From a virus (lineage: Duplodnaviria > Caudoviricetes), in the IMG/VR virus record IMGVR_UViG_3300025978_000007, positions 1 through 51,647 of that record: a DNA stretch of 51,647 nucleotides; one strand, written 5' to 3'. The notes beneath the pieces were generated by a model. The model ran no database searches. It saw only the letters and a list, made by a program, of their open reading frames with translations, and had not been told where the DNA came from. Shown here piece by piece: positions 6,376 through 31,386 of this stretch; position 1 is the stretch's first letter, and every line of letters begins with the position of its first letter. Position numbers and translations under genes: made by a program.

Positions 6376-6969
6376 CTATTTGATAATTTTTATTGAATGG
6401 AAGTATGTTATTTTTGAGTGGGGATTGAAACTCTCCACTTGAATCTTATTCTGTTTTGTTTTCCATTTTATTAGTCCAAAAAGATACCGGTGTTCTTTGT
6501 AGTAATCTACGATCATGAAACTATCTTTGAGTTCATAAGTTATCAAGGCTTTACTATTTCTGAATATTATAGCTTGTATAGTAGCCCAATTATCCACATA
6601 GGACGCGTGTAGTGAACTTAAACTATCAATATATACAATTGCATCAACCGTATCTTTAATTGCGCTAGAAACGTTTTCTATCTGATTAGGTGAACCTATC
6701 TTATTTGCATAGATATATTCTTTCTTATAGATAGTCTTCACATTCTCTTTCTTCATGGACAGCACGTTTACTTGCGCAATATTTTTACCATATTTTACAG
6801 AATCAGTCAAAGAGTTTATGCTTTGTGATAATGCGAATGATACGGTTTTCTCGTGTTCATATTTGGCTTTATATTTAGTTGCTATGTAGCCTACTATGCT
6901 TAAAACCAAAAGAAGCACAGCAATTAATGCCGTGCCACCTTTATTTTGTATTTTTATCTCTTTCGACAT
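6376..6969 (-). CDS. Membrane-anchored lysis protein (i-spanin-like, DUF6549-like)
   Basis: N-terminal TM helix, helical then beta region, FGLIKW...NPHSKI tail; last gene of the late arm. Confidence 0.55.
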   Translation of the reverse strand: MSKEIKIQNKGGTALIAVLLLVLSIVGYIATKYKAKYEHEKTVSFALSQSINSLTDSVKYGKNIAQVNVLSMKKENVKTIYKKEYIYANKIGSPNQIENVSSAIKDTVDAIVYIDSLSSLHASYVDNWATIQAIIFRNSKALITYELKDSFMIVDYYKEHRYLFGLIKWKTKQNKIQVESFNPHSKITYFHSIKIIK

Positions 6970-6970
6970 A

Positions 6971-7447
6971 TCACCCAGCTTTATATACCGTAGTAACGAT
7001 CACAGCTATTTCAGCAAGTGAAAGTTTACCATCAGAGAAGTCTTTTGCAAGTAACGAAGCTATTTCGGTAAGCGTAACCGATTTATTATCTAACTCCAAT
7101 GTAGAAATATAGTTGCTTATCAAAACTATCTTTTCAGATACCGTAGTAGCGTTTGCCGATTCGTCCGCAATGTTTAAACCTGAAATTACCTTATCAATAT
7201 TATTGGTAATCCAATTTCGAACCAATACAGCAATGGTACTTCCCCATTTAGTGGCAATAACACTTACAATTGTTTCAACTGCATCTGCCTGAGATGATGC
7301 ATTGAATTTCTTTATCACATTACATACATCAATCGCAATTGGTGCGTACTTCTTTACTATCTCATCATTCATAGTCAACAAATTTGAGAACCATGAAACC
7401 ACCTTATCAAAAAGGCTTGTAATCTTTTTCCAAAAACTCATAATCAT
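6971..7447 (-). CDS. Helical hypothetical protein in the lysis region
   Basis: Amphipathic N-terminus FWKKITSLFDKVVSWF. Confidence 0.7.
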   Translation of the reverse strand: MIMSFWKKITSLFDKVVSWFSNLLTMNDEIVKKYAPIAIDVCNVIKKFNASSQADAVETIVSVIATKWGSTIAVLVRNWITNNIDKVISGLNIADESANATTVSEKIVLISNYISTLELDNKSVTLTEIASLLAKDFSDGKLSLAEIAVIVTTVYKAG

Positions 7448-7668
7448 TTTTTATTTTTACGTCCTTGTGCAGCCAATGCGGCAGCACCTTTATTACCATA
7501 TTTCTCTCTAGCAATTTTTCCGACTATCGCTCCGGCATAATCAGAAGAATATCCTTTCTTTGTTAAAGCGGATTTTATTTTCTTTGAACCGACATACGTA
7601 CCCGCTTTCTTTGCAGCAGCACGTTTTTTTAATGCCGATTTCAATGCAGGGGATTGAGTTGTTGCCAT
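7444..7668 (-). CDS. Small Lys/Ala-rich basic protein
   Basis: ORF track, start moved to ATG at 7668. Confidence 0.75.
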   Translation of the reverse strand: MATTQSPALKSALKKRAAAKKAGTYVGSKKIKSALTKKGYSSDYAGAIVGKIAREKYGNKGAAALAAQGRKNKK

Positions 7669-7808
7669 CACTTACCTTTTTTAGCCATTTTGTTCTGCAT
7701 GTAGGCACCTAACCCACCCTTAAGGTTACCTAGTTTTGAGCTAGTTGCTTTCTTTGTAGGAGTTGCTTTCTTTGGGGCAACAACCTTCTTTGTTACTTTT
7801 GCTTTCAT
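7668..7808 (-). CDS. Small Lys-rich basic 46-aa protein (not in ORF track)
   Basis: MKAKVTKKVVAPKKATPTKKATSSKLGNLKGGLGAYMQNKMAKKGK*; overlaps both neighbours. Confidence 0.75.
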   Translation of the reverse strand: MKAKVTKKVVAPKKATPTKKATSSKLGNLKGGLGAYMQNKMAKKGK

Positions 7809-8125
7809 TTTAATTTATTTTTTAATTGTTCTCTCTTTTTTATGATAGGACATTCTTCCCTATCACATAATATTACAGCGTTAAAAGCCATTTGATCTAC
7901 ATTTAAGTATCCATCTTGCTTAATTTCTTTTTCCTCTAAGTATTTCACTTTAGTTTCTAATCTATCTACTCTTACAATAAGAGTTTCTCTTTCTGTTCTT
8001 AGACCATCAACTACGGTCATTAAATTTTTTACATTCTTACTTTCTCGTTCTGTGGAAAAGTAAAGAACTAATGCCACTATACCAGAGGAAGATCCTATTA
8101 GACCTACAATCGAACCTATATCCAT
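7805..8125 (-). CDS. Holin-like protein (one TM plus coiled coil)
   Basis: Gly-rich N-terminal TM helix, heptad region, C-x4-CP tail; position after tail genes. Confidence 0.55.
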   Translation of the reverse strand: MDIGSIVGLIGSSSGIVALVLYFSTERESKNVKNLMTVVDGLRTERETLIVRVDRLETKVKYLEEKEIKQDGYLNVDQMAFNAVILCDREECPIIKKREQLKNKLK

Positions 8126-8279
8126 TATTAACCTCCTTTTCTACTTTTAATATTTTATCGAATCCTTTTTCTAATTCTTCTAACTGTTCAGGAGTTAGAT
8201 GGTCGCAATATCCGCTCTCCAATTCTCTAATAAGCCTTTTTAGAGCTTTTATTATTTTCTTTATCAGATCGTTTTCCAT
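8037..8279 (-). CDS. Small helical protein, third gene of the peptide cassette
   Basis: MENDLIKKIIKALKRLIRELESGYCDHLTPEQLEELEKG... Confidence 0.65.
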   Translation of the reverse strand: MENDLIKKIIKALKRLIRELESGYCDHLTPEQLEELEKGFDKILKVEKEVNNGYRFDCRSNRIFLWYSGISSLLFHRTRK

Positions 8280-8622
8280 ATACAAATAATATTAATGATA
8301 CAAATAGTCCTAAAATAACTACTCCTTGTATGGCGTAAAGATAATAATTAATTTTGACAATGTTTATATCAATATACTCTAAAATAAGACTTATAATAGA
8401 GGAAATGCATAAAACCCTATACCATATACAAAATTTAAAAACAAATGAAGAAATAAAACAAATAACCATAACATACATACTAGTTCCTGTTAAGCAATAA
8501 ATCCAATTAGAAATATCAATACCAATAGAATATAGTTGTACATTCAGTAGTAATTGAATATTTAGTATTATTGGGAAATATTTTAATAACCGAATTAGCA
8601 GTATGGTACAGAATTTATTCAT
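8227..8622 (-). CDS. Multi-pass (about 4 TM) membrane protein
   Basis: Four hydrophobic stretches; SFVFKFCIWYR motif. Confidence 0.8.
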   Translation of the reverse strand: MNKFCTILLIRLLKYFPIILNIQLLLNVQLYSIGIDISNWIYCLTGTSMYVMVICFISSFVFKFCIWYRVLCISSIISLILEYIDINIVKINYYLYAIQGVVILGLFVSLILFVYGKRSDKENNKSSKKAY

Positions 8623-8708
8623 TTCCCTATTGCTCCTCCACTTCTAGGTCCTCCCGATTCCATGTCTTCTAATTGTTCTTCATCAAATAATTTTTCTAAA
8701 TTTTTCAT
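8619..8708 (-). CDS. 29-aa peptide (not in ORF track)
   Basis: MKNLEKLFDEEQLEDMESGGPRSGGAIGK*; A-rich leader; ATGA overlap with 8622. Confidence 0.7.
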   Translation of the reverse strand: MKNLEKLFDEEQLEDMESGGPRSGGAIGK

Positions 8709-8724: not shown

Positions 8725-11700
8725 TTAATAACCTAAATAACTCCAAGCCCAATGCGTTCCATTCCAACGCACGATACATCCATCTCCATTTCCTAAAACT
8801 TTATATATTACTCCATTATCACTAGAATTTGCTCTTATGTGGTCTGTTCCATTCGTGGATACAGTGACATCTCCTCCATACATCTTTTTAAAGATAAAAG
8901 TCAATCCAACATCAGATCCGTTAGTACTAGGAGTTGGCAAAGTAAGTGTAATAGCTGAATCGGCATAACTATCTACAAAACAATCAGTCTTTAGTACCTG
9001 ATAGTTTGCTGTTACCTTTTTTGAATTGGGTATAATACCCAATACTTTAAGTCTATTGAAATAACCACCATAAGACTTACTTGCATTCACTGTGTCGGAA
9101 TCAGATGTTTGGTCTAATCCGAATATCGCTGCTGATATTCCAGATGAATCAGAGTTCCTCTTTTGCAAAAGCATAGCCAAAGTGAAATTAGATGTAAATC
9201 CCGTTGTTCCGGATAATCCCTTTATATTACTACCATTAGAGAACAATCCCTCACACCCTACTTCGCTGTAACTTCCTCCACCCAAGTCACCTGAATCCAA
9301 TGAATCCCAATAAGTAATATCTGTAGGAAGTAAACCTGATGTAGGAGTTTCTGTTTCTAACCAATCATACGTAAATATATAAGTATATCCGGTTGTTGAA
9401 TAATATACTCTATCATCTTTATAATAAATAGTTGATGAAGAGTAATTCCCCTTCCATTGTTTATCCCGTATCACCATTGCCGGCTTCTGTTGGCCAGATG
9501 ATTGCATCGCTGATATATCTTTTCCTAATCCAATTATTGCATTACTTATAGATGCTGCGTCTGCTTTATTCCTAAATATACCAAGCGACGAATCAAGAAT
9601 AGAAAGAAGTAAATTATATGGGTTGGAGCTAGTAGAAAGTTTTGAAACAATCAAATTATTGATATATGCTTCCTGTGCAAGTAATAATCCCGTTGCAATG
9701 CTAGAGAATGATGCACCAAAACTGTTCCAATGCGTGGTATCGCTATTAGGAGTTGTTGCAGAAGAGAATGAACCTCCTACGTCATATCTAGCAATATAGT
9801 AAACATTACTGTAAAGAACTACTGATACAACTGTAGCGCTACCTGTATAAGTATCCGATGCAGACCATGTTCCATAGAATGACATCGCTGGTCCCGTATT
9901 TCCTGTTGACCCTGTTGCACCTGTTGCTCCCGTATCTCCTTGCGCTCCACTAAATCTTTGAGGAGTGCTCCATGTATCTACCAATGCATCTGCCGAAGTC
10001 TTTTCCGCAGTCGTTATCCACATATATTGGTAAAGATTCATTGACGGAAGATCTGTTGTCCATCCACTAGGCACATCTTCGGTATTATCTAATGCAGGGG
10101 CTATGGTATCAGATCCGTTTACAGCATAACGATGTTCGTAATAATTTCCCGTTGCTCCTGTTGCTCCTGTGCTTCCTGTTGCTCCTGTGCTTCCTGTTGC
10201 TCCTGTGCTTCCTGTTGCTCCTGTATCTCCTTGCGCAGAAACAACCGTCCAATTCGTTCCTTCCATAGGAGTAACGTTTTGTGCCGCCGTAGAGTTAATG
10301 AATCTCCATGTAGACCCTCCATAAGTTACGGTATCTCCATTATAATAGAGAGTATTTGTAGCATATGCGCCTCTGAAAACGCTTACGGCACTTTCAATAC
10401 CTGAAGGAGAAACAGTTAACCCACCTTTTATTTTCAGTAAGTCTTCATCAGTGTCCCAATCCAAATATTTCTCGGTATTTCCTACATGTACTTTATTGTT
10501 ATCTAAATCTAAGTAGGTATTTCCATCCTGACTTTGTATTTTACCTGTAACAATAGTATTTCCATTGATAAAAGTAAATCCATTTGAGGTATAGAACTGT
10601 CTAATAGAATTAGTCAATGCCGTTAATGTTCCTAACAAGAAATAATAGTAGTTCGAATCTGAATTTACCTTATATACTGTTTCGGTAAACAATATGATAG
10701 CATCTGAACTGCCTGTTGTTGCATTGCATCTGATATAAGCATAGTATGCAGTATCAGCATCCGAAGCAGTGAAACTGCCACTAACAATGTTCCAAGTTCT
10801 ATCGGTGCTCTGTTGAGTACTATCGACAATCGTTCCCGCACTCCACGATACAACATTAGGCGTATTTGAATAAGTTGTAACACTTACCCCTGTAAGCGTA
10901 TATTGTTGAGTTTCCGTCCCAAATAAAGCCATAGCCGTTTTTACAAATAATGGGGCTATTCCATCAGTGAAATAACTGCTTTCAGGGTCAAATGCCATAG
11001 ATATAGCTTCGGACGCACTCTTATAAGTACGCACCTTAGCCATTTGAGTATTCAGATTGCTATATTGGACATAAGTGGAATTTTGATTTGTTGAGTTTAT
11101 TATTGATTGAATCTTACTAGGAACATAAGGAGTATTATCAAGCGTAATCTCATATTTATATGCTTCGGTAATATATCTCTTTAAATCGGTTACTCTATAC
11201 ATTAAATCAATCCCGAAATCAGTATCAATCACTTGAATAACATCACCAATACTTATATTTATCAGATTATTTGTTGCCCAAACAGTATCGACATCGCCTT
11301 TGTATGTAACCTGATCCACGCAATACTGATTCAAATATACTTGCGCCTTCGCTTTCAAGTAATTCTCATTCTTACTAATGTAAGATTGTGGCATATAGAA
11401 ATCAACGATATTGAATTGATCACCTGCAGCAAAAGTATATCCCGCTGTTGGTAAGGTCGAATCGTTTCCATCTTGTATGGATTCAATCGTCATTTGTTTG
11501 GTAGTCTTATCAAAATCAGAAATTGGAAACTCGTATCCTGCCAAGTTACCGGTAATGAAATGAACTTTAGGCAATGTCCCGTCTTGCATGACTAGATCCG
11601 CATCACGAGGATTAAAAGATAAGTTTTTATCAATCAACTTATATTCCCCAACTGCTGTCGTTACAGTGCCTTCGGTAATCTGCCAATAAGAACCTTCAGC

Positions 11701-12924
11701 GGGCGTTATATTAACTCCGCTAACTCCTATGAATGTCCATGAATAGTTATTATAAACAACCATGCTACCACTTACATAAGTGACGGTTGAATCATAATCA
11801 TCCGTTGCATGAAGCATAGCTGGGTAAATATCGTCCCAAGTTTGAATCGTTTCAAGCGGATGTTTCAAATCTATATTATCTGCATCCAAATAATATTTGT
11901 CAGGAAGCATCAACCTCTTTGAACCTCCTCGATAGGTTGAACGTATATTCTTCGTTCCCCCTAAAGCGATAAGACGGGTAACCTTTTTTGATTGAGTTAC
12001 TTCGTCACGTTCGATATTTTGAAAACCATTCCCGCTGCCATACTTCATTACTAAAGAAGTAGTGTTAGAACGTTTACCTATATTTATTGTGTAATTGTCG
12101 TGTGATGTTTGACCTATCCAAAACTCTGTATCGTATAAGTCAGCCGTAGTGCCTAAAGCTGAGAGAACTGATACATTGGAGAATGCTTGTTCTTTTGGTT
12201 GGTCTGTAATAGTATATCCAACTGTCCAATTCTGATCAGGGCGACCACGATTCATATTGTCGCAGAATAACTGTGCCCATCTGCCTGGAGTAAGTACGGA
12301 AGAGAAGTCCCATTTAGGAGCCGTTGCTATTAAAGTCCAATAATTGCCTTCTTCGGGATGTGTATTGGTTGTATCAACCGAACCTATATGTTTCCAAATG
12401 CAATCATCATAGACTACTTCATCTCCATAAGTATAAGTAGTTGAAGCTACGTATTGAGCTACCTCATGCGTTACATTTGATTTAAGTTGCCAATAACTTC
12501 CTTCTTCAGGTGAGATTCCATTAATTGAAGTTGTTGAAATACACTCCCAATAAAGAGTATGATAAGAAACAACCATACCCTTAGAATAAGTCGTTGCACT
12601 ATTATATGCGGGAGTGATAGAAGAGGTCGTATTGTCAAATAGTTGCAAATTTACATCATCCATATCAGCCCTGGGGCTTTCAAATTTCAATGTATATTCG
12701 TAATGAACAGAAGAATACTTTTTTACGGGTGCAGGTTTCTTTAGAATCGTATAATACATTCCATAAAGTTCCACATAATCACCTATATCGAAAGGGATAT
12801 ATTCTCCTAAGACAAATTTTATCTGTGCATATTCCTCATCAGATATTTTGTTTTCTATATAACTATCCGCACTCTCATGAATGGCTGTGCGGATAGTATT
12901 GTCTGCTTTATATACCGTTATCAT
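8725..12924 (-). CDS. Tail-tip hub / central fibre protein with CBM5/12-like repeats and collagen-like linkers
   Basis: VTRLIALGGTKNI and DDIYP hub-type motifs; six Y-x4-Y-x2-G-x2-V-type modules; GxT triplets. Confidence 0.8.
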   Translation of the reverse strand: MITVYKADNTIRTAIHESADSYIENKISDEEYAQIKFVLGEYIPFDIGDYVELYGMYYTILKKPAPVKKYSSVHYEYTLKFESPRADMDDVNLQLFDNTTSSITPAYNSATTYSKGMVVSYHTLYWECISTTSINGISPEEGSYWQLKSNVTHEVAQYVASTTYTYGDEVVYDDCIWKHIGSVDTTNTHPEEGNYWTLIATAPKWDFSSVLTPGRWAQLFCDNMNRGRPDQNWTVGYTITDQPKEQAFSNVSVLSALGTTADLYDTEFWIGQTSHDNYTINIGKRSNTTSLVMKYGSGNGFQNIERDEVTQSKKVTRLIALGGTKNIRSTYRGGSKRLMLPDKYYLDADNIDLKHPLETIQTWDDIYPAMLHATDDYDSTVTYVSGSMVVYNNYSWTFIGVSGVNITPAEGSYWQITEGTVTTAVGEYKLIDKNLSFNPRDADLVMQDGTLPKVHFITGNLAGYEFPISDFDKTTKQMTIESIQDGNDSTLPTAGYTFAAGDQFNIVDFYMPQSYISKNENYLKAKAQVYLNQYCVDQVTYKGDVDTVWATNNLINISIGDVIQVIDTDFGIDLMYRVTDLKRYITEAYKYEITLDNTPYVPSKIQSIINSTNQNSTYVQYSNLNTQMAKVRTYKSASEAISMAFDPESSYFTDGIAPLFVKTAMALFGTETQQYTLTGVSVTTYSNTPNVVSWSAGTIVDSTQQSTDRTWNIVSGSFTASDADTAYYAYIRCNATTGSSDAIILFTETVYKVNSDSNYYYFLLGTLTALTNSIRQFYTSNGFTFINGNTIVTGKIQSQDGNTYLDLDNNKVHVGNTEKYLDWDTDEDLLKIKGGLTVSPSGIESAVSVFRGAYATNTLYYNGDTVTYGGSTWRFINSTAAQNVTPMEGTNWTVVSAQGDTGATGSTGATGSTGATGSTGATGATGNYYEHRYAVNGSDTIAPALDNTEDVPSGWTTDLPSMNLYQYMWITTAEKTSADALVDTWSTPQRFSGAQGDTGATGATGSTGNTGPAMSFYGTWSASDTYTGSATVVSVVLYSNVYYIARYDVGGSFSSATTPNSDTTHWNSFGASFSSIATGLLLAQEAYINNLIVSKLSTSSNPYNLLLSILDSSLGIFRNKADAASISNAIIGLGKDISAMQSSGQQKPAMVIRDKQWKGNYSSSTIYYKDDRVYYSTTGYTYIFTYDWLETETPTSGLLPTDITYWDSLDSGDLGGGSYSEVGCEGLFSNGSNIKGLSGTTGFTSNFTLAMLLQKRNSDSSGISAAIFGLDQTSDSDTVNASKSYGGYFNRLKVLGIIPNSKKVTANYQVLKTDCFVDSYADSAITLTLPTPSTNGSDVGLTFIFKKMYGGDVTVSTNGTDHIRANSSDNGVIYKVLGNGDGCIVRWNGTHWAWSYLGY
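10147..10230 (-). repeat. Collagen-like (GATGST)n coding repeat; shorter copy at about 9890-9948
   Basis: Tandem 18-nt units TGTTGCTCCTGTGCTTCC. Confidence 0.9.
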
Positions 12925-30652: not shown

Positions 30653-30829
30653 TTATTTTAGATGTGGCATCTCATTATATCCTTTGCACAGAAAGTCATA
30701 CTCGCTATAAGTCAACTCACCTTTGATATATTCTTGATAATATCTAGGTTTTGGACTTTGATTTACTTCTCTTATCGAACTACATGAGCACATAAGAGAA
30801 CAAATTCCGAAAAATATAAGTTTTTTCAT
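30653..30829 (-). CDS. 58-aa lipoprotein (not in ORF track)
   Basis: MKKLIFFGICSLMCS-CSSIREV...MPHLK*. Confidence 0.75.
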   Translation of the reverse strand: MKKLIFFGICSLMCSCSSIREVNQSPKPRYYQEYIKGELTYSEYDFLCKGYNEMPHLK

Positions 30830-30879: not shown

Positions 30880-31386
30880 TTATCTTATACCCAATCTTGC
30901 CAACGTCTTATACATTGACTTGATATTTTCTGCATAGTTCGGGTCAGTGGCATATTTCTTTGTCCCTGATTGCAATAACTCTACAAACTTAATAGGATCG
31001 TTTCGATACTTCCAAGCTTCGGTAAATCCTTCCAATACCTTATTGTGGTCTAAGATAGCCTCGTGTAAAGAATCATAATCCCTAAACCATAACTCTGCCA
31101 CGTATTTATTGTTTCCTGTCTTCAATTTGACACAAGAAACGATTCTTTCTCCTACTTGAAGAACAGGTTGTTTCTTAAGTATCTCGGTCGTTCTTATCAA
31201 TACCCGTTTCCCTTTCCATGAAGAGGTTGCCTTGACACCCCAAAGATTGAATTCACCTATCTTACTTCTCATCCAACCTGTCTCCCAGCATGCTTGTGCC
31301 GTAATGAACAATGGGGATACTCCACAACCGACCGCCTCATTGTAAATTCCTTGTGCTATTTGCTTATTCTTTTCACTCATAATCAA
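30880..31386 (-). CDS. Endolysin, GH73 glucosaminidase/FlgJ-like
   Basis: AQACWETGW, NLWGVKA, YATDPNY. Confidence 0.9.
   Translation of the reverse strand: MIMSEKNKQIAQGIYNEAVGCGVSPLFITAQACWETGWMRSKIGEFNLWGVKATSSWKGKRVLIRTTEILKKQPVLQVGERIVSCVKLKTGNNKYVAELWFRDYDSLHEAILDHNKVLEGFTEAWKYRNDPIKFVELLQSGTKKYATDPNYAENIKSMYKTLARLGIR

What the first reader, a model, noticed from the sequence alone, without database searches (positions are those of the whole stretch)
8037..8708. Peptide, membrane protein and helical protein cassette just upstream of the holin-like gene
Seen: an unannotated 29-aa ORF (MKNLEKLFDEEQLEDMESGG-PRSGGAIGK) is ATGA-coupled to a roughly 4-TM protein, which overlaps a small helical protein that in turn overlaps the holin-like gene. 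The peptide's EQLEDMESG resembles EQLEELEKG in the third protein. Its acidic helix plus GG loosely fits a double-glycine leader, one residue out of register. Inference: a peptide/receptor/effector module, possibly controlling lysis timing or phage-phage signalling, in which the peptide mimics the partner's binding helix. I recall similar trios in other Bacteroidota phages but cannot verify this.
Basis: partly seen in the sequence, partly recalled or inferred. Interest (0 to 1): 0.7.

Follow-up and report, generated by a model that had tools for sequence, protein, structure and literature searches.

The report
Conserved micro-protein and membrane-protein lysis-region module
The tiny 29-codon reading frame is a real, conserved gene that always sits directly in front of an undescribed four-helix membrane protein and a small helical protein in phages of Bacteroidota, usually beside the cell-wall-degrading enzyme, so it probably helps control host-cell lysis, not peptide signalling between phages.

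Summary
A 29-codon ORF (8619-8708, minus) overlaps by ATGA a 131-aa four-helix membrane protein (8227-8622). That overlaps an 80-aa helical protein (8037-8279), which overlaps a 106-aa N-terminal-TM/coiled-coil protein (7805-8125).

The membrane protein belongs to an unannotated family: 109 representatives, no Pfam or PHROG match. I sorted 117 loci into 17 clusters.
- A short ORF ends at the membrane gene's start in 15 of 17, or 17 of 17 counting L005 and the uncoupled L009.
- Seven clusters share the motif P-x(0,1)-[RQ]-[ST]-G-G-[GA]. It occurs nowhere else in 320,702 six-frame residues.
- Its Gly and Arg codons vary, so selection acts on the peptide.
- The helical protein follows in 16 of 17 clusters.
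- The TM/coiled-coil protein follows in 10 of 17.
- A recognised endolysin is adjacent in 7 of 17.

My best reading (about 0.45) is a lysis-control module: a holin-like membrane protein with two small cytoplasmic partners. The peptide-mimicry, double-glycine-leader and secreted-signal ideas are not supported, because the acidic N-terminal part is not conserved and the peptide has no export signal. Function is untested. A complex prediction gave no verdict.

The parts
8619..8708 (-). Micro-ORF, 29 aa, acidic N-terminal part plus the conserved C-terminal motif PRSGGAIGK. Its stop overlaps the next start (ATGA).
   Evidence: Motif P.{0,1}[RQ][ST]GG[GA] at the same site in 7 of 17 clusters and nowhere else in 320,702 six-frame residues. 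Wobble and Arg-codon variation. Exact sequence is in the protein collection as an unnamed singleton. No Rfam match and no unusual RNA fold.
8227..8622 (-). 131-aa four-helix inner-membrane protein with a basic C-terminal tail. Member of an unannotated family with motifs K-x-Y-P, G-x-S, F-K-F-C-x-W-[HY]-R and L-E.
   Evidence: 109 representatives at E<=1e-3; no Pfam or PHROG; pLDDT 91; no solved relative; tail charge >= +2 in 80 of 109.
8037..8279 (-). 80-aa helical protein. Residues 1-51 form a conserved helical hairpin (invariant G23, near-invariant C25). Residues 52-80 are an out-of-frame tail over the start of the next gene.
   Evidence: In a near relative (contig of run X4), 4 of 4 substitutions in the overlap change the tail but are silent in the other frame.
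7805..8125 (-).
   Evidence: Present after the hairpin gene in 10 of 17 clusters. The L007 homologue hits PHROGs 'hol-like' (7.7e-6) and 'Rz-like spanin' (8.7e-4) only weakly. The window's own protein hits nothing.
8725..12924 (-). Context: 1399-aa tail-fibre protein with collagen-like repeats, directly upstream.
6376..6969 (-). Context: 197-aa N-terminal-TM protein of family DUF6549, last gene of the operon. Homologues lie after the endolysin in related cassettes.
30880..31386 (-). Context: the only recognisable endolysin candidate (Glucosaminidase domain). It has no signal peptide and lies 22 kb away in the same transcription direction.

Best explanation
This is a conserved accessory lysis module of phages that infect Bacteroidota, not described so far. 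The 131-aa protein is a four-helix inner-membrane protein of holin-like build, with both ends and its most conserved loop (F-K-F-C-x-W-[HY]-R) on the cytoplasmic side. It is made together with two small cytoplasmic products. One is the micro-protein, whose conserved part is the P-R-[ST]-G-G stretch and whose stop codon hands ribosomes straight to the membrane gene. The other is a helical-hairpin protein whose gene overlaps the membrane gene's tail. I propose that the membrane protein is the hole-former or lysis timer. I propose that the two small proteins hold it in check or set its dose, as the cytoplasmic antiholin RIII does for holin T in T4. The N-terminal-TM/coiled-coil protein would act on the periplasmic side. 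Shown: the genes, their conservation, peptide-level selection on the micro-ORF, the fold confidence and the endolysin neighbourhood in relatives. Inferred: topology, binding and every functional role.
For: Module conservation across 17 clusters, drawn from 117 loci. A short ORF ends within a few bases of the membrane gene's start in 15 of 17 (with L006); in L005 the frame runs past that start and in L009 it ends about 60 nt upstream. Ten of the 17 have a 4-nt start/stop overlap. The hairpin gene follows in 16 of 17. The TM/coiled-coil gene follows in 10 of 17. The motif is specific: 7 hits in 320,702 six-frame residues, all at this site. Selection acts on the peptide: Gly codons are fixed at positions 1-2 with 3-4 different bases at position 3, and Arg is coded by AGA, AGG or CGC. 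In the crAss-like cluster, 11 of 14 polymorphic sites are third positions, with 12 synonymous and 3 non-synonymous changes among 59 loci. Lysis setting: recognised endolysins (GH19, GH108+PG_binding_3, Muramidase, Phage_lysozyme) lie next to the module in 7 of 17 clusters, and DUF5675 fills the same slot in 2 more. In the window the endolysin candidate has no signal peptide, so a holin is needed. The late operon encodes only three membrane proteins: this one, the TM/coiled-coil protein and DUF6549. Holin-like traits: about 130 aa, and a basic C-terminal tail in 80 of 109 family representatives. Five fused tandem duplicates hint at a dimer. The family is almost absent from 185,579 species' genomes (1 weak hit), so it is a gene of non-integrated phages rather than a prophage conversion gene. 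The ESM Atlas's nearest cluster carries the automatic name 'putative Phage holin' (score 0.92). This may be the protein's own cluster and is a lead only.
Against: No member has a tested function, and no known holin, antiholin or spanin family matches. In the window itself the endolysin is 22 kb away. Relatives carry further small membrane proteins (66-83 aa, two TM) after the endolysin that could be the true holin. In 6 of 17 clusters, crAss-like phages among them, the membrane protein is paired with a hairpin protein that carries a MerR/excisionase-like winged-helix domain and has no TM/coiled-coil gene; 5 of these have no endolysin in the fetched flanks, while L115 has a Phage_lysozyme gene just upstream. 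That pairing fits a regulatory switch better than a simple holin. His in the conserved loop is Tyr in the window's lineage.
Confidence: 0.45

Rival explanations
1. Cis-acting leader. The micro-ORF exists to load or meter ribosomes onto the membrane-protein gene by termination-reinitiation. Its conserved P-R-[ST]-G-G(-x-x-P-P) stretch acts as a nascent chain inside the ribosome that slows elongation or termination, as arrest peptides do upstream of secA or yidC2 (recalled). It would not act as a free protein.
For: The start and stop overlap by 4 nt in 10 of 17 clusters, and the ORF ends within a few bases of the start in most others. The conserved part is short, Gly/Pro-rich and lacks hydrophobic residues, so it cannot fold alone. 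Most genes of this phage have no Shine-Dalgarno sequence (GGAGG upstream of 5 of 67 genes), so internal genes may depend on coupling.
Against: The distance from the motif to the downstream ATG varies from 12 to about 33 nt. A ribosome paused on the motif would therefore not sit in one fixed relation to the start. There is no unusual RNA structure to be opened (z = 0.35). In the crAss-like cluster the micro-ORF is uncoupled: it lies about 60 nt upstream, followed by a hairpin, yet it is still under purifying selection.
Confidence: 0.2
2. Membrane-to-DNA switch rather than lysis machinery. The four-helix protein is a sensor or anchor that holds the hairpin protein at the membrane. In many phages the hairpin carries a DNA-binding winged helix. 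The pair would control late transcription, DNA handling or entry of superinfecting DNA, and the lysis neighbourhood would be only operon geography.
For: Hairpin proteins of L008, L115, L009 and L086/L087/L116 are 93-129 aa. The modelled one (L008 type, pLDDT 82) best matches RdfS excisionase, MerR-family regulators, RacA and GlnR (Foldseek probability 0.96-1.00, E 0.035-0.5). In most of those phages no endolysin or TM/coiled-coil gene is adjacent. The membrane-protein tree splits along the hairpin type, with weak support (87/79).
Against: No Foldseek match reaches E <= 0.001. The window's hairpin has no DNA-binding domain. The module sits at the end of the late operon, not among early or regulatory genes. 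Ten of 17 clusters, counting the window's DUF6549 gene, have lysis genes next to it.
Confidence: 0.2
3. The peptide is an exported signal with a double-glycine-type leader. After processing it acts on the membrane 'receptor' by mimicking the binding helix of the helical 'effector', giving phage-phage communication.
For: The 6/9 likeness is present and is reached by only 86 of 5000 shuffles. The conserved part of the micro-protein is exactly the stretch after the GG. R-x-G-G recurs in the window, L001 and the crAss-like micro-ORF.
Against: The acidic helix and its likeness are lineage-specific. The micro-ORFs of L003 and L004 (22 and 24 aa) have no leader at all. There is no signal sequence. 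No C39-peptidase/ABC exporter and no AimR-like receptor appeared among 70 ORFs scanned. The membrane protein's conserved residues face the cytoplasm by the positive-inside reading (an inference). In a near relative the 'mimicked' segment shows an i/i+4 charge swap (E34K with K38E). That looks like an intrahelical salt bridge, not an interface.
Confidence: 0.05
4. The 29-codon frame is a chance ORF, and the G-rich stretch is only a ribosome-binding site for the membrane gene.
For: A 29-codon open frame alone is not rare in this sequence. GGAGG occurs within the Gly codons in 7 of 8 lineages compared.
Against: GGAGG lies 12-33 nt from the ATG, outside a working spacing. One lineage (L003) lacks it. 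Arg and Gly are kept through different codons. The relative L001 keeps a 71-codon frame open, and its differences from L002 include two in-frame indels. Purifying selection is measurable in the crAss-like cluster.
Confidence: 0.03

Closest known systems
Phage T4 lysis control: holin T with antiholins RI (periplasmic) and RIII (cytoplasmic). I saw only the abstracts in the search listing (PMC8385771, PMC11413866).
   Same: A membrane hole-former is regulated by small dedicated phage proteins, one of them a small cytoplasmic protein. The genes are late and set lysis timing.
   Different: No sequence or fold relation was found. T has one TM helix and a large periplasmic domain, while this protein has four TM helices and almost no soluble part. 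T4 has no coupled micro-ORF. The RIII analogy rests on size and location only.
Multi-TM holins and dual-start holin/antiholin pairs such as lambda S105/S107 (recalled, not from a call)
   Same: Small size, several TM helices, basic cytoplasmic C-terminal tail, and regulation built into translation initiation at the holin gene.
   Different: Here the upstream element is a separate conserved ORF of 22-74 codons, not a two-codon extension. No holin family in Pfam or PHROGs matches.
Double-glycine leader peptides of bacteriocins and competence pheromones (recalled)
   Same: An acidic helical N-terminal part followed by GG in the window's peptide.
   Different: Hydrophobic positions are out of register, there is no cognate C39 transporter, and the leader is not conserved in homologues.
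Arbitrium AimP peptides of Bacillus phages (recalled)
   Same: A short phage ORF whose conserved part is a C-terminal stretch containing Arg-Gly.
   Different: AimP has a secretion signal and a cytoplasmic TPR receptor, AimR, and controls lysogeny. This peptide has no signal and no AimR-like gene. The phage shows no integrase among the ORFs scanned, and the family is nearly absent from bacterial genomes.
Ribosome-arrest leader peptides (SecM, MifM and RAPP-type; recalled)
   Same: A short conserved peptide encoded directly upstream of a membrane-related gene, with Arg/Gly/Pro at its core.
   Different: Those peptides carry an N-terminal export or TM segment that senses translocation, and they unmask a downstream start through RNA structure. 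Neither feature is seen here.

Membership tests
Double-glycine leader peptide | Leader consensus with hydrophobic residues at -4, -7, -12 and -15 before GG | tested here: not met
   Read from the sequence: E, E, D and K stand at those positions, and the hydrophobic residues are one place off for the first three. The consensus itself is recalled.
Double-glycine leader peptide | Cognate ABC exporter with a C39 peptidase domain | tested here: not met
   None among 70 ORFs of the phage scanned against Pfam. A host-encoded exporter cannot be excluded.
Double-glycine leader peptide | Leader conserved among homologues | tested here: not met
   Micro-ORFs of L003 and L004 are 22 and 24 aa with no leader, and that of L005 likewise opens with only eight residues before the motif; L007 and L001 differ entirely upstream of the motif.
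Arbitrium (AimP/AimR) | N-terminal secretion signal on the peptide and an AimR-type receptor gene next to it | tested here: not met
   No hydrophobic stretch in the 29 aa (sequence). The neighbours are a 4-TM protein and a hairpin protein without Pfam hits.
Holin (functional class) | Small phage membrane protein with one or more TM helices and a charged C-terminal tail | tested here: met
   131 aa with four TM helices. Tail net charge is >= +2 in 80 of 109 family members.
Holin (functional class) | Encoded next to the endolysin | tested here: inconclusive
   Not in the window, where the endolysin candidate is at 30880-31386. Yes in 7 of 17 related clusters, plus 2 with DUF5675 in that slot.
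Holin (functional class) | Membership of a described holin family | tested here: not met
   No Pfam or PHROG match for the window protein or for 40 family members. No names in the protein collection.
Holin (functional class) | Timed lethal permeabilisation of the inner membrane that releases endolysin | not testable with these tools
   Needs expression and lysis assays.
T4 RIII-like cytoplasmic antiholin | Small cytoplasmic protein that binds the holin's cytoplasmic part and delays lysis | not testable with these tools
   Only size (80 aa), helical build and the lack of TM or signal segments are seen. No direct comparison with RIII was made.
Rz-type i-spanin (for the 106-aa neighbour) | N-terminal TM helix, periplasmic coiled coil with Cys, and a partner lipoprotein gene embedded or adjacent | tested here: inconclusive
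   TM helix, coiled coil and C-x4-C-P are present. Only the L007 homologue gives a weak PHROG Rz-like hit (8.7e-4). There is no lipoprotein gene in the cassette; a 58-aa lipoprotein-like ORF lies at 30653-30829.

The most novel reading that the evidence does not exclude
The three products form a phage-encoded membrane switch. The micro-protein, possibly trimmed at its R-x-G-G site, is the ligand or co-factor of the four-helix membrane protein. That protein in turn holds or releases the hairpin protein. In crAss-like and other gut phages the hairpin carries a DNA-binding winged helix, while in this phage it works with a periplasm-spanning coiled-coil protein. The switch would tie the moment of lysis, or late gene expression, to a cellular or phage-density cue. 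That would make it a new kind of lysis or late-gene control, widespread in Bacteroidota phages.
Probability: 0.12. Interest if true: 0.85.

Novelty: new variant of a known kind. Interest (0 to 1): 0.55.

Why it matters
Lysis by phages of Bacteroidota, including the abundant crAss-like gut phages, is poorly understood. Two literature searches for lysis cassettes of these phages found only general remarks. This work defines three linked gene families without any annotation. They are a micro-protein with a sharp P-R-[ST]-G-G motif, a confidently folded four-helix membrane protein, and a helical-hairpin protein. All three recur from wetland siphovirus-like phages to human-gut crAss-like phages. 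If the membrane protein is the holin, or its regulator, it would give a handle on lysis timing in these phages. It would also be a clear example of a conserved, translationally coupled micro-protein in a lysis cassette. If not, it is still a widespread phage membrane module of unknown role that annotation pipelines miss or leave nameless.

Tried and rejected
- **Phage genome records.** Searches with the DNA and with the 131-aa and 106-aa proteins found nothing. With relatives' proteins the only record was csAssE-Sib, where all three genes are 'hypothetical'.
- **Single-sequence scans of viral contigs.** These found no relatives. An alignment of 40 was too diverse to search with, so I used narrower alignments.
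- **Complex prediction.** Membrane protein plus hairpin residues 1-52 gave 'no answer' (score 0.00, controls not run). This is no evidence either way. The peptide itself was not tested in a complex.
- **Fold searches of the membrane protein.** No PDB match at E <= 0.001. The best VIA Z was 7.5, to generic four-helix TM bundles, which is within the noise for helical models.
- **Rfam and RNA folding over the micro-ORF.** Nothing.
- **Sequencing runs.** No RNA holder was listed. Laid contigs cover the micro-ORF only in the run that may be the source, so I got no population variation for it.
- **Protein search with the 29-aa peptide.** The exact look-up found it only as a singleton.
- **The closest relative.** The contig carrying P0002 and P0005 could not be fetched, so I could not check whether the acidic helix co-varies with the hairpin.
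- **A -1 frameshift fusion of micro-ORF and membrane protein.** I considered and dropped this: there is no conserved slippery site, and the membrane protein's own N-terminus is conserved.
- **In-frame read-through from the tail-fibre gene.** Excluded, because the frames differ.
- **Supplementary files of papers.** Not consulted.

Full report
**What is there.** The window is a complete 51,647-base phage record with direct terminal repeats. Its late genes run on the minus strand: small terminase, portal, tape measure and a 1399-aa collagen-repeat tail fibre. After the fibre gene come eight small genes.
- 29 aa (8619-8708).
- 131 aa (8227-8622).
- 80-82 aa (8037-8279/8285).
- 106 aa (7805-8125).
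- 46 aa, 75 aa and 158 aa.
- A 197-aa DUF6549 protein (6376-6969).

The peptide and membrane genes overlap by ATGA. The membrane and helical genes overlap by 53 nt, and the helical gene overlaps the next by 89 nt. None of the four matches Pfam or PHROGs.

**The membrane protein defines a family.** A word-based search found only two relatives, at 62% and 58% identity. A profile search of 1.84 billion representatives found 109 proteins at E <= 1e-3: 11 at <= 1e-10 and 2 at <= 1e-30. Most were full length, with a median of 132 aa. They share the motifs K-x-Y-P, G-x-S, F-K-F-C-x-W-[HY]-R and L-E, and usually a basic tail. Forty members gave no consistent Pfam or PHROG family, and no source names them. 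The AlphaFold2 model is confident (pLDDT 91.0, pTM 0.80). It has no solved relative. Its only predicted-structure look-alikes are uncharacterised proteins of uncultured phages, one of them crAss-like. A scan of one genome from each of 185,579 species gave a single weak hit, in a Muribaculaceae MAG. The family therefore belongs to non-integrated phages.

**Gene neighbourhoods.** I fetched two metagenome loci and 114 viral-contig loci. With the window, these gave 17 clusters at 70% identity of the membrane protein. Two loci were re-fetches of contigs already held. One cluster of 73 loci is a crAss-like phage group: a CrAss_Ring_2 protein lies next door, and it is 96% identical to the GenBank phage csAssE-Sib.
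- The helical protein follows the membrane gene in 16 of 17 clusters. It is absent in L094. In L087 an inserted IS605 OrfB gene separates the two.
- Its first 45 or so residues are conserved, with invariant G23 and near-invariant C25.
- The N-terminal-TM/coiled-coil protein follows in 10 of 17 clusters.
- A recognised endolysin lies next to the module in 7 of 17 clusters: L003, L004, L006, L007, L011, L095 and L115. It follows the module directly in six; in L115 it lies upstream, with one gene between it and the micro-ORF. DUF5675 fills the slot in L083 and L094.
- Small two-TM proteins come next. After them come either lipoproteins with a C-terminal TM helix or DUF6549-type proteins.

**The micro-ORF is a gene.** In 15 of the 17 clusters a short frame ends within a few bases of the membrane gene's start (with L006 taken). 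In L005 the frame runs past the start I chose, and in the crAss-like L009 cluster it ends about 60 nt upstream and is uncoupled. Ten of the 17 have a 4-nt overlap: nine plus L006. In L011 my script picked a GTG start.

The N-terminal parts differ wildly, from 22 to 74 codons, and in three lineages the frame is fused to a longer ORF. Seven clusters share P-x(0,1)-[RQ]-[ST]-G-G-[GA]: the window, L003, L004, L005, L006, L007 and L008. That pattern occurs 7 times in 320,702 six-frame residues of the 16 representative loci plus the whole window, every time at this site. Six more clusters have looser Pro/Gly-rich ends. Four have basic peptides, one of which contains R-Q-G-G-S-V-G-G-K, close to the window's R-S-G-G-A-I-G-K.

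The conservation is at the peptide level. The three Gly codons vary only at position 3, with three or four different bases there. Arg is AGA, AGG or CGC. GGAGG does fall inside these codons in 7 of 8 lineages. However, it lies 12-33 nt from the ATG and one lineage lacks it, so a ribosome-binding site does not explain the motif. Most genes of this phage have no such site anyway (5 of 67). In the crAss-like cluster, 59 loci give 14 polymorphic sites. Eleven are at third positions, with 12 synonymous and 3 non-synonymous changes. L001 and L002 differ by two in-frame indels inside a tandem repeat of the frame. No Rfam family and no unusual fold lies over the region.

**What does not hold.**
- The EQLEDMESG / EQLEELEKG likeness is real (6/9; 86 of 5000 shuffles), but it is confined to this lineage. 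Other micro-ORFs have no such helix and no likeness to their own hairpin proteins.
- A near relative seen in a contig of run X4, and the relative P0005, carry E34K together with K38E in that segment. This is an i/i+4 charge swap typical of an intrahelical salt bridge.
- The same contig shows that the hairpin ORF's C-terminal 29 residues are not selected. Four of four substitutions in the overlap change that tail, while all five substitutions in the other frame are silent.
- The double-glycine reading fails on register, on conservation and on the absence of an exporter.
- A secreted signal is unlikely without any hydrophobic segment.

**Mechanism.** The window's endolysin candidate (Glucosaminidase, 30880-31386) has no signal peptide, so the phage needs a holin. 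Its late operon encodes only three membrane proteins. The 131-aa protein has the size, helix count and basic tail of a holin, and its relatives sit by endolysins. I therefore rank highest a lysis-control module. In it the four-helix protein forms or times the lesion, and the hairpin and micro-protein act on its cytoplasmic face. The 4-nt overlap would fix their relative dose.

The main doubt comes from six clusters whose hairpin carries a winged helix. These are L008, L115, the crAss-like L009 cluster, and L086/L087/L116. The modelled one has pLDDT 82 and best matches excisionase and MerR-type regulators. Foldseek probabilities are high, but no E-value is below 0.035. Five of those six loci lack visible lysis genes; L115 has a Phage_lysozyme gene and a DUF6549-like gene just upstream of the micro-ORF. 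That pattern suits a membrane-to-DNA switch. A purely cis-acting leader role for the micro-ORF also remains open. All functional statements here are inference.

**Host.** The host is probably a member of Bacteroidota. This is inferred from the A/T-rich leaders without Shine-Dalgarno sites, the crAss-like and BACON-protein relatives and the Muribaculaceae hit. The runs that hold the DNA are labelled wetland metagenome.

**Literature.** Searches for DUF6549 (0 papers), for crAss-like lysis genes, for Bacteroides phage lysis cassettes (passages read), for four-TM holins and for coupled small ORFs upstream of holins found nothing describing this module. For T4 RI/RIII I saw only the listing abstracts. 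Other comparisons (lambda S, arbitrium, double-glycine leaders, arrest peptides) are recalled.

Noticed in passing
window 30653-30829 (-): A 58-aa ORF with a signal-peptide-like start and Cys residues (lipoprotein-like) lies directly downstream of the glucosaminidase gene. It is a possible outer-membrane spanin component, far from the membrane-protein cassette.
   Followed up: no
window 7444-7671 and 7668-7808 (-): Two Lys/Ala-rich small proteins (75 and 46 aa) follow the cassette. The 75-aa one is 78% identical to its counterpart in L002. It has only weak, sub-threshold hits to tape-measure and tail-lysozyme families.
   Followed up: partly
L001 1189-1404 and L002 133-342: The relative's micro-ORF is swollen to 69-74 codons by 6-nt and 12-nt tandem repeats coding Asn-Val and Asp-Gly-Gly-Thr. 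The two copies differ by in-frame indels. In this lineage the ORF has a strong AAGGAGGT site before its ATG.
   Followed up: partly
L087 3382-4527: An IS605 OrfB/TnpB-type gene is inserted between the membrane-protein gene and the hairpin gene of one phage.
   Followed up: no
proteins P0018, P0020, P0040, P0060, P0091: Five family members are tandem duplications of the four-helix unit in one chain (259-272 aa). This hints that the unit works as a dimer.
   Followed up: no
L083 3863-4258 and L094 4449-4835: DUF5675 proteins occupy the slot that endolysins fill in the other cassettes, which suggests a cell-wall-degrading role for this uncharacterised family.
   Followed up: no
window, upstream of 1137, 7805 (8125 on minus), 8227 (8622 on minus), 32119 (32763 on minus), 44084: Only 5 of 67 genes have a GGAGG-type site before the start. 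The rest have A/T-rich leaders, as expected for a Bacteroidota host.
   Followed up: partly
L004 2337-2807 and L011 5518-6024: These proteins have an N-terminal lipobox and a C-terminal TM helix, the build of one-piece spanins. They sit at the end of related cassettes, where other lineages and the window have DUF6549 proteins.
   Followed up: no
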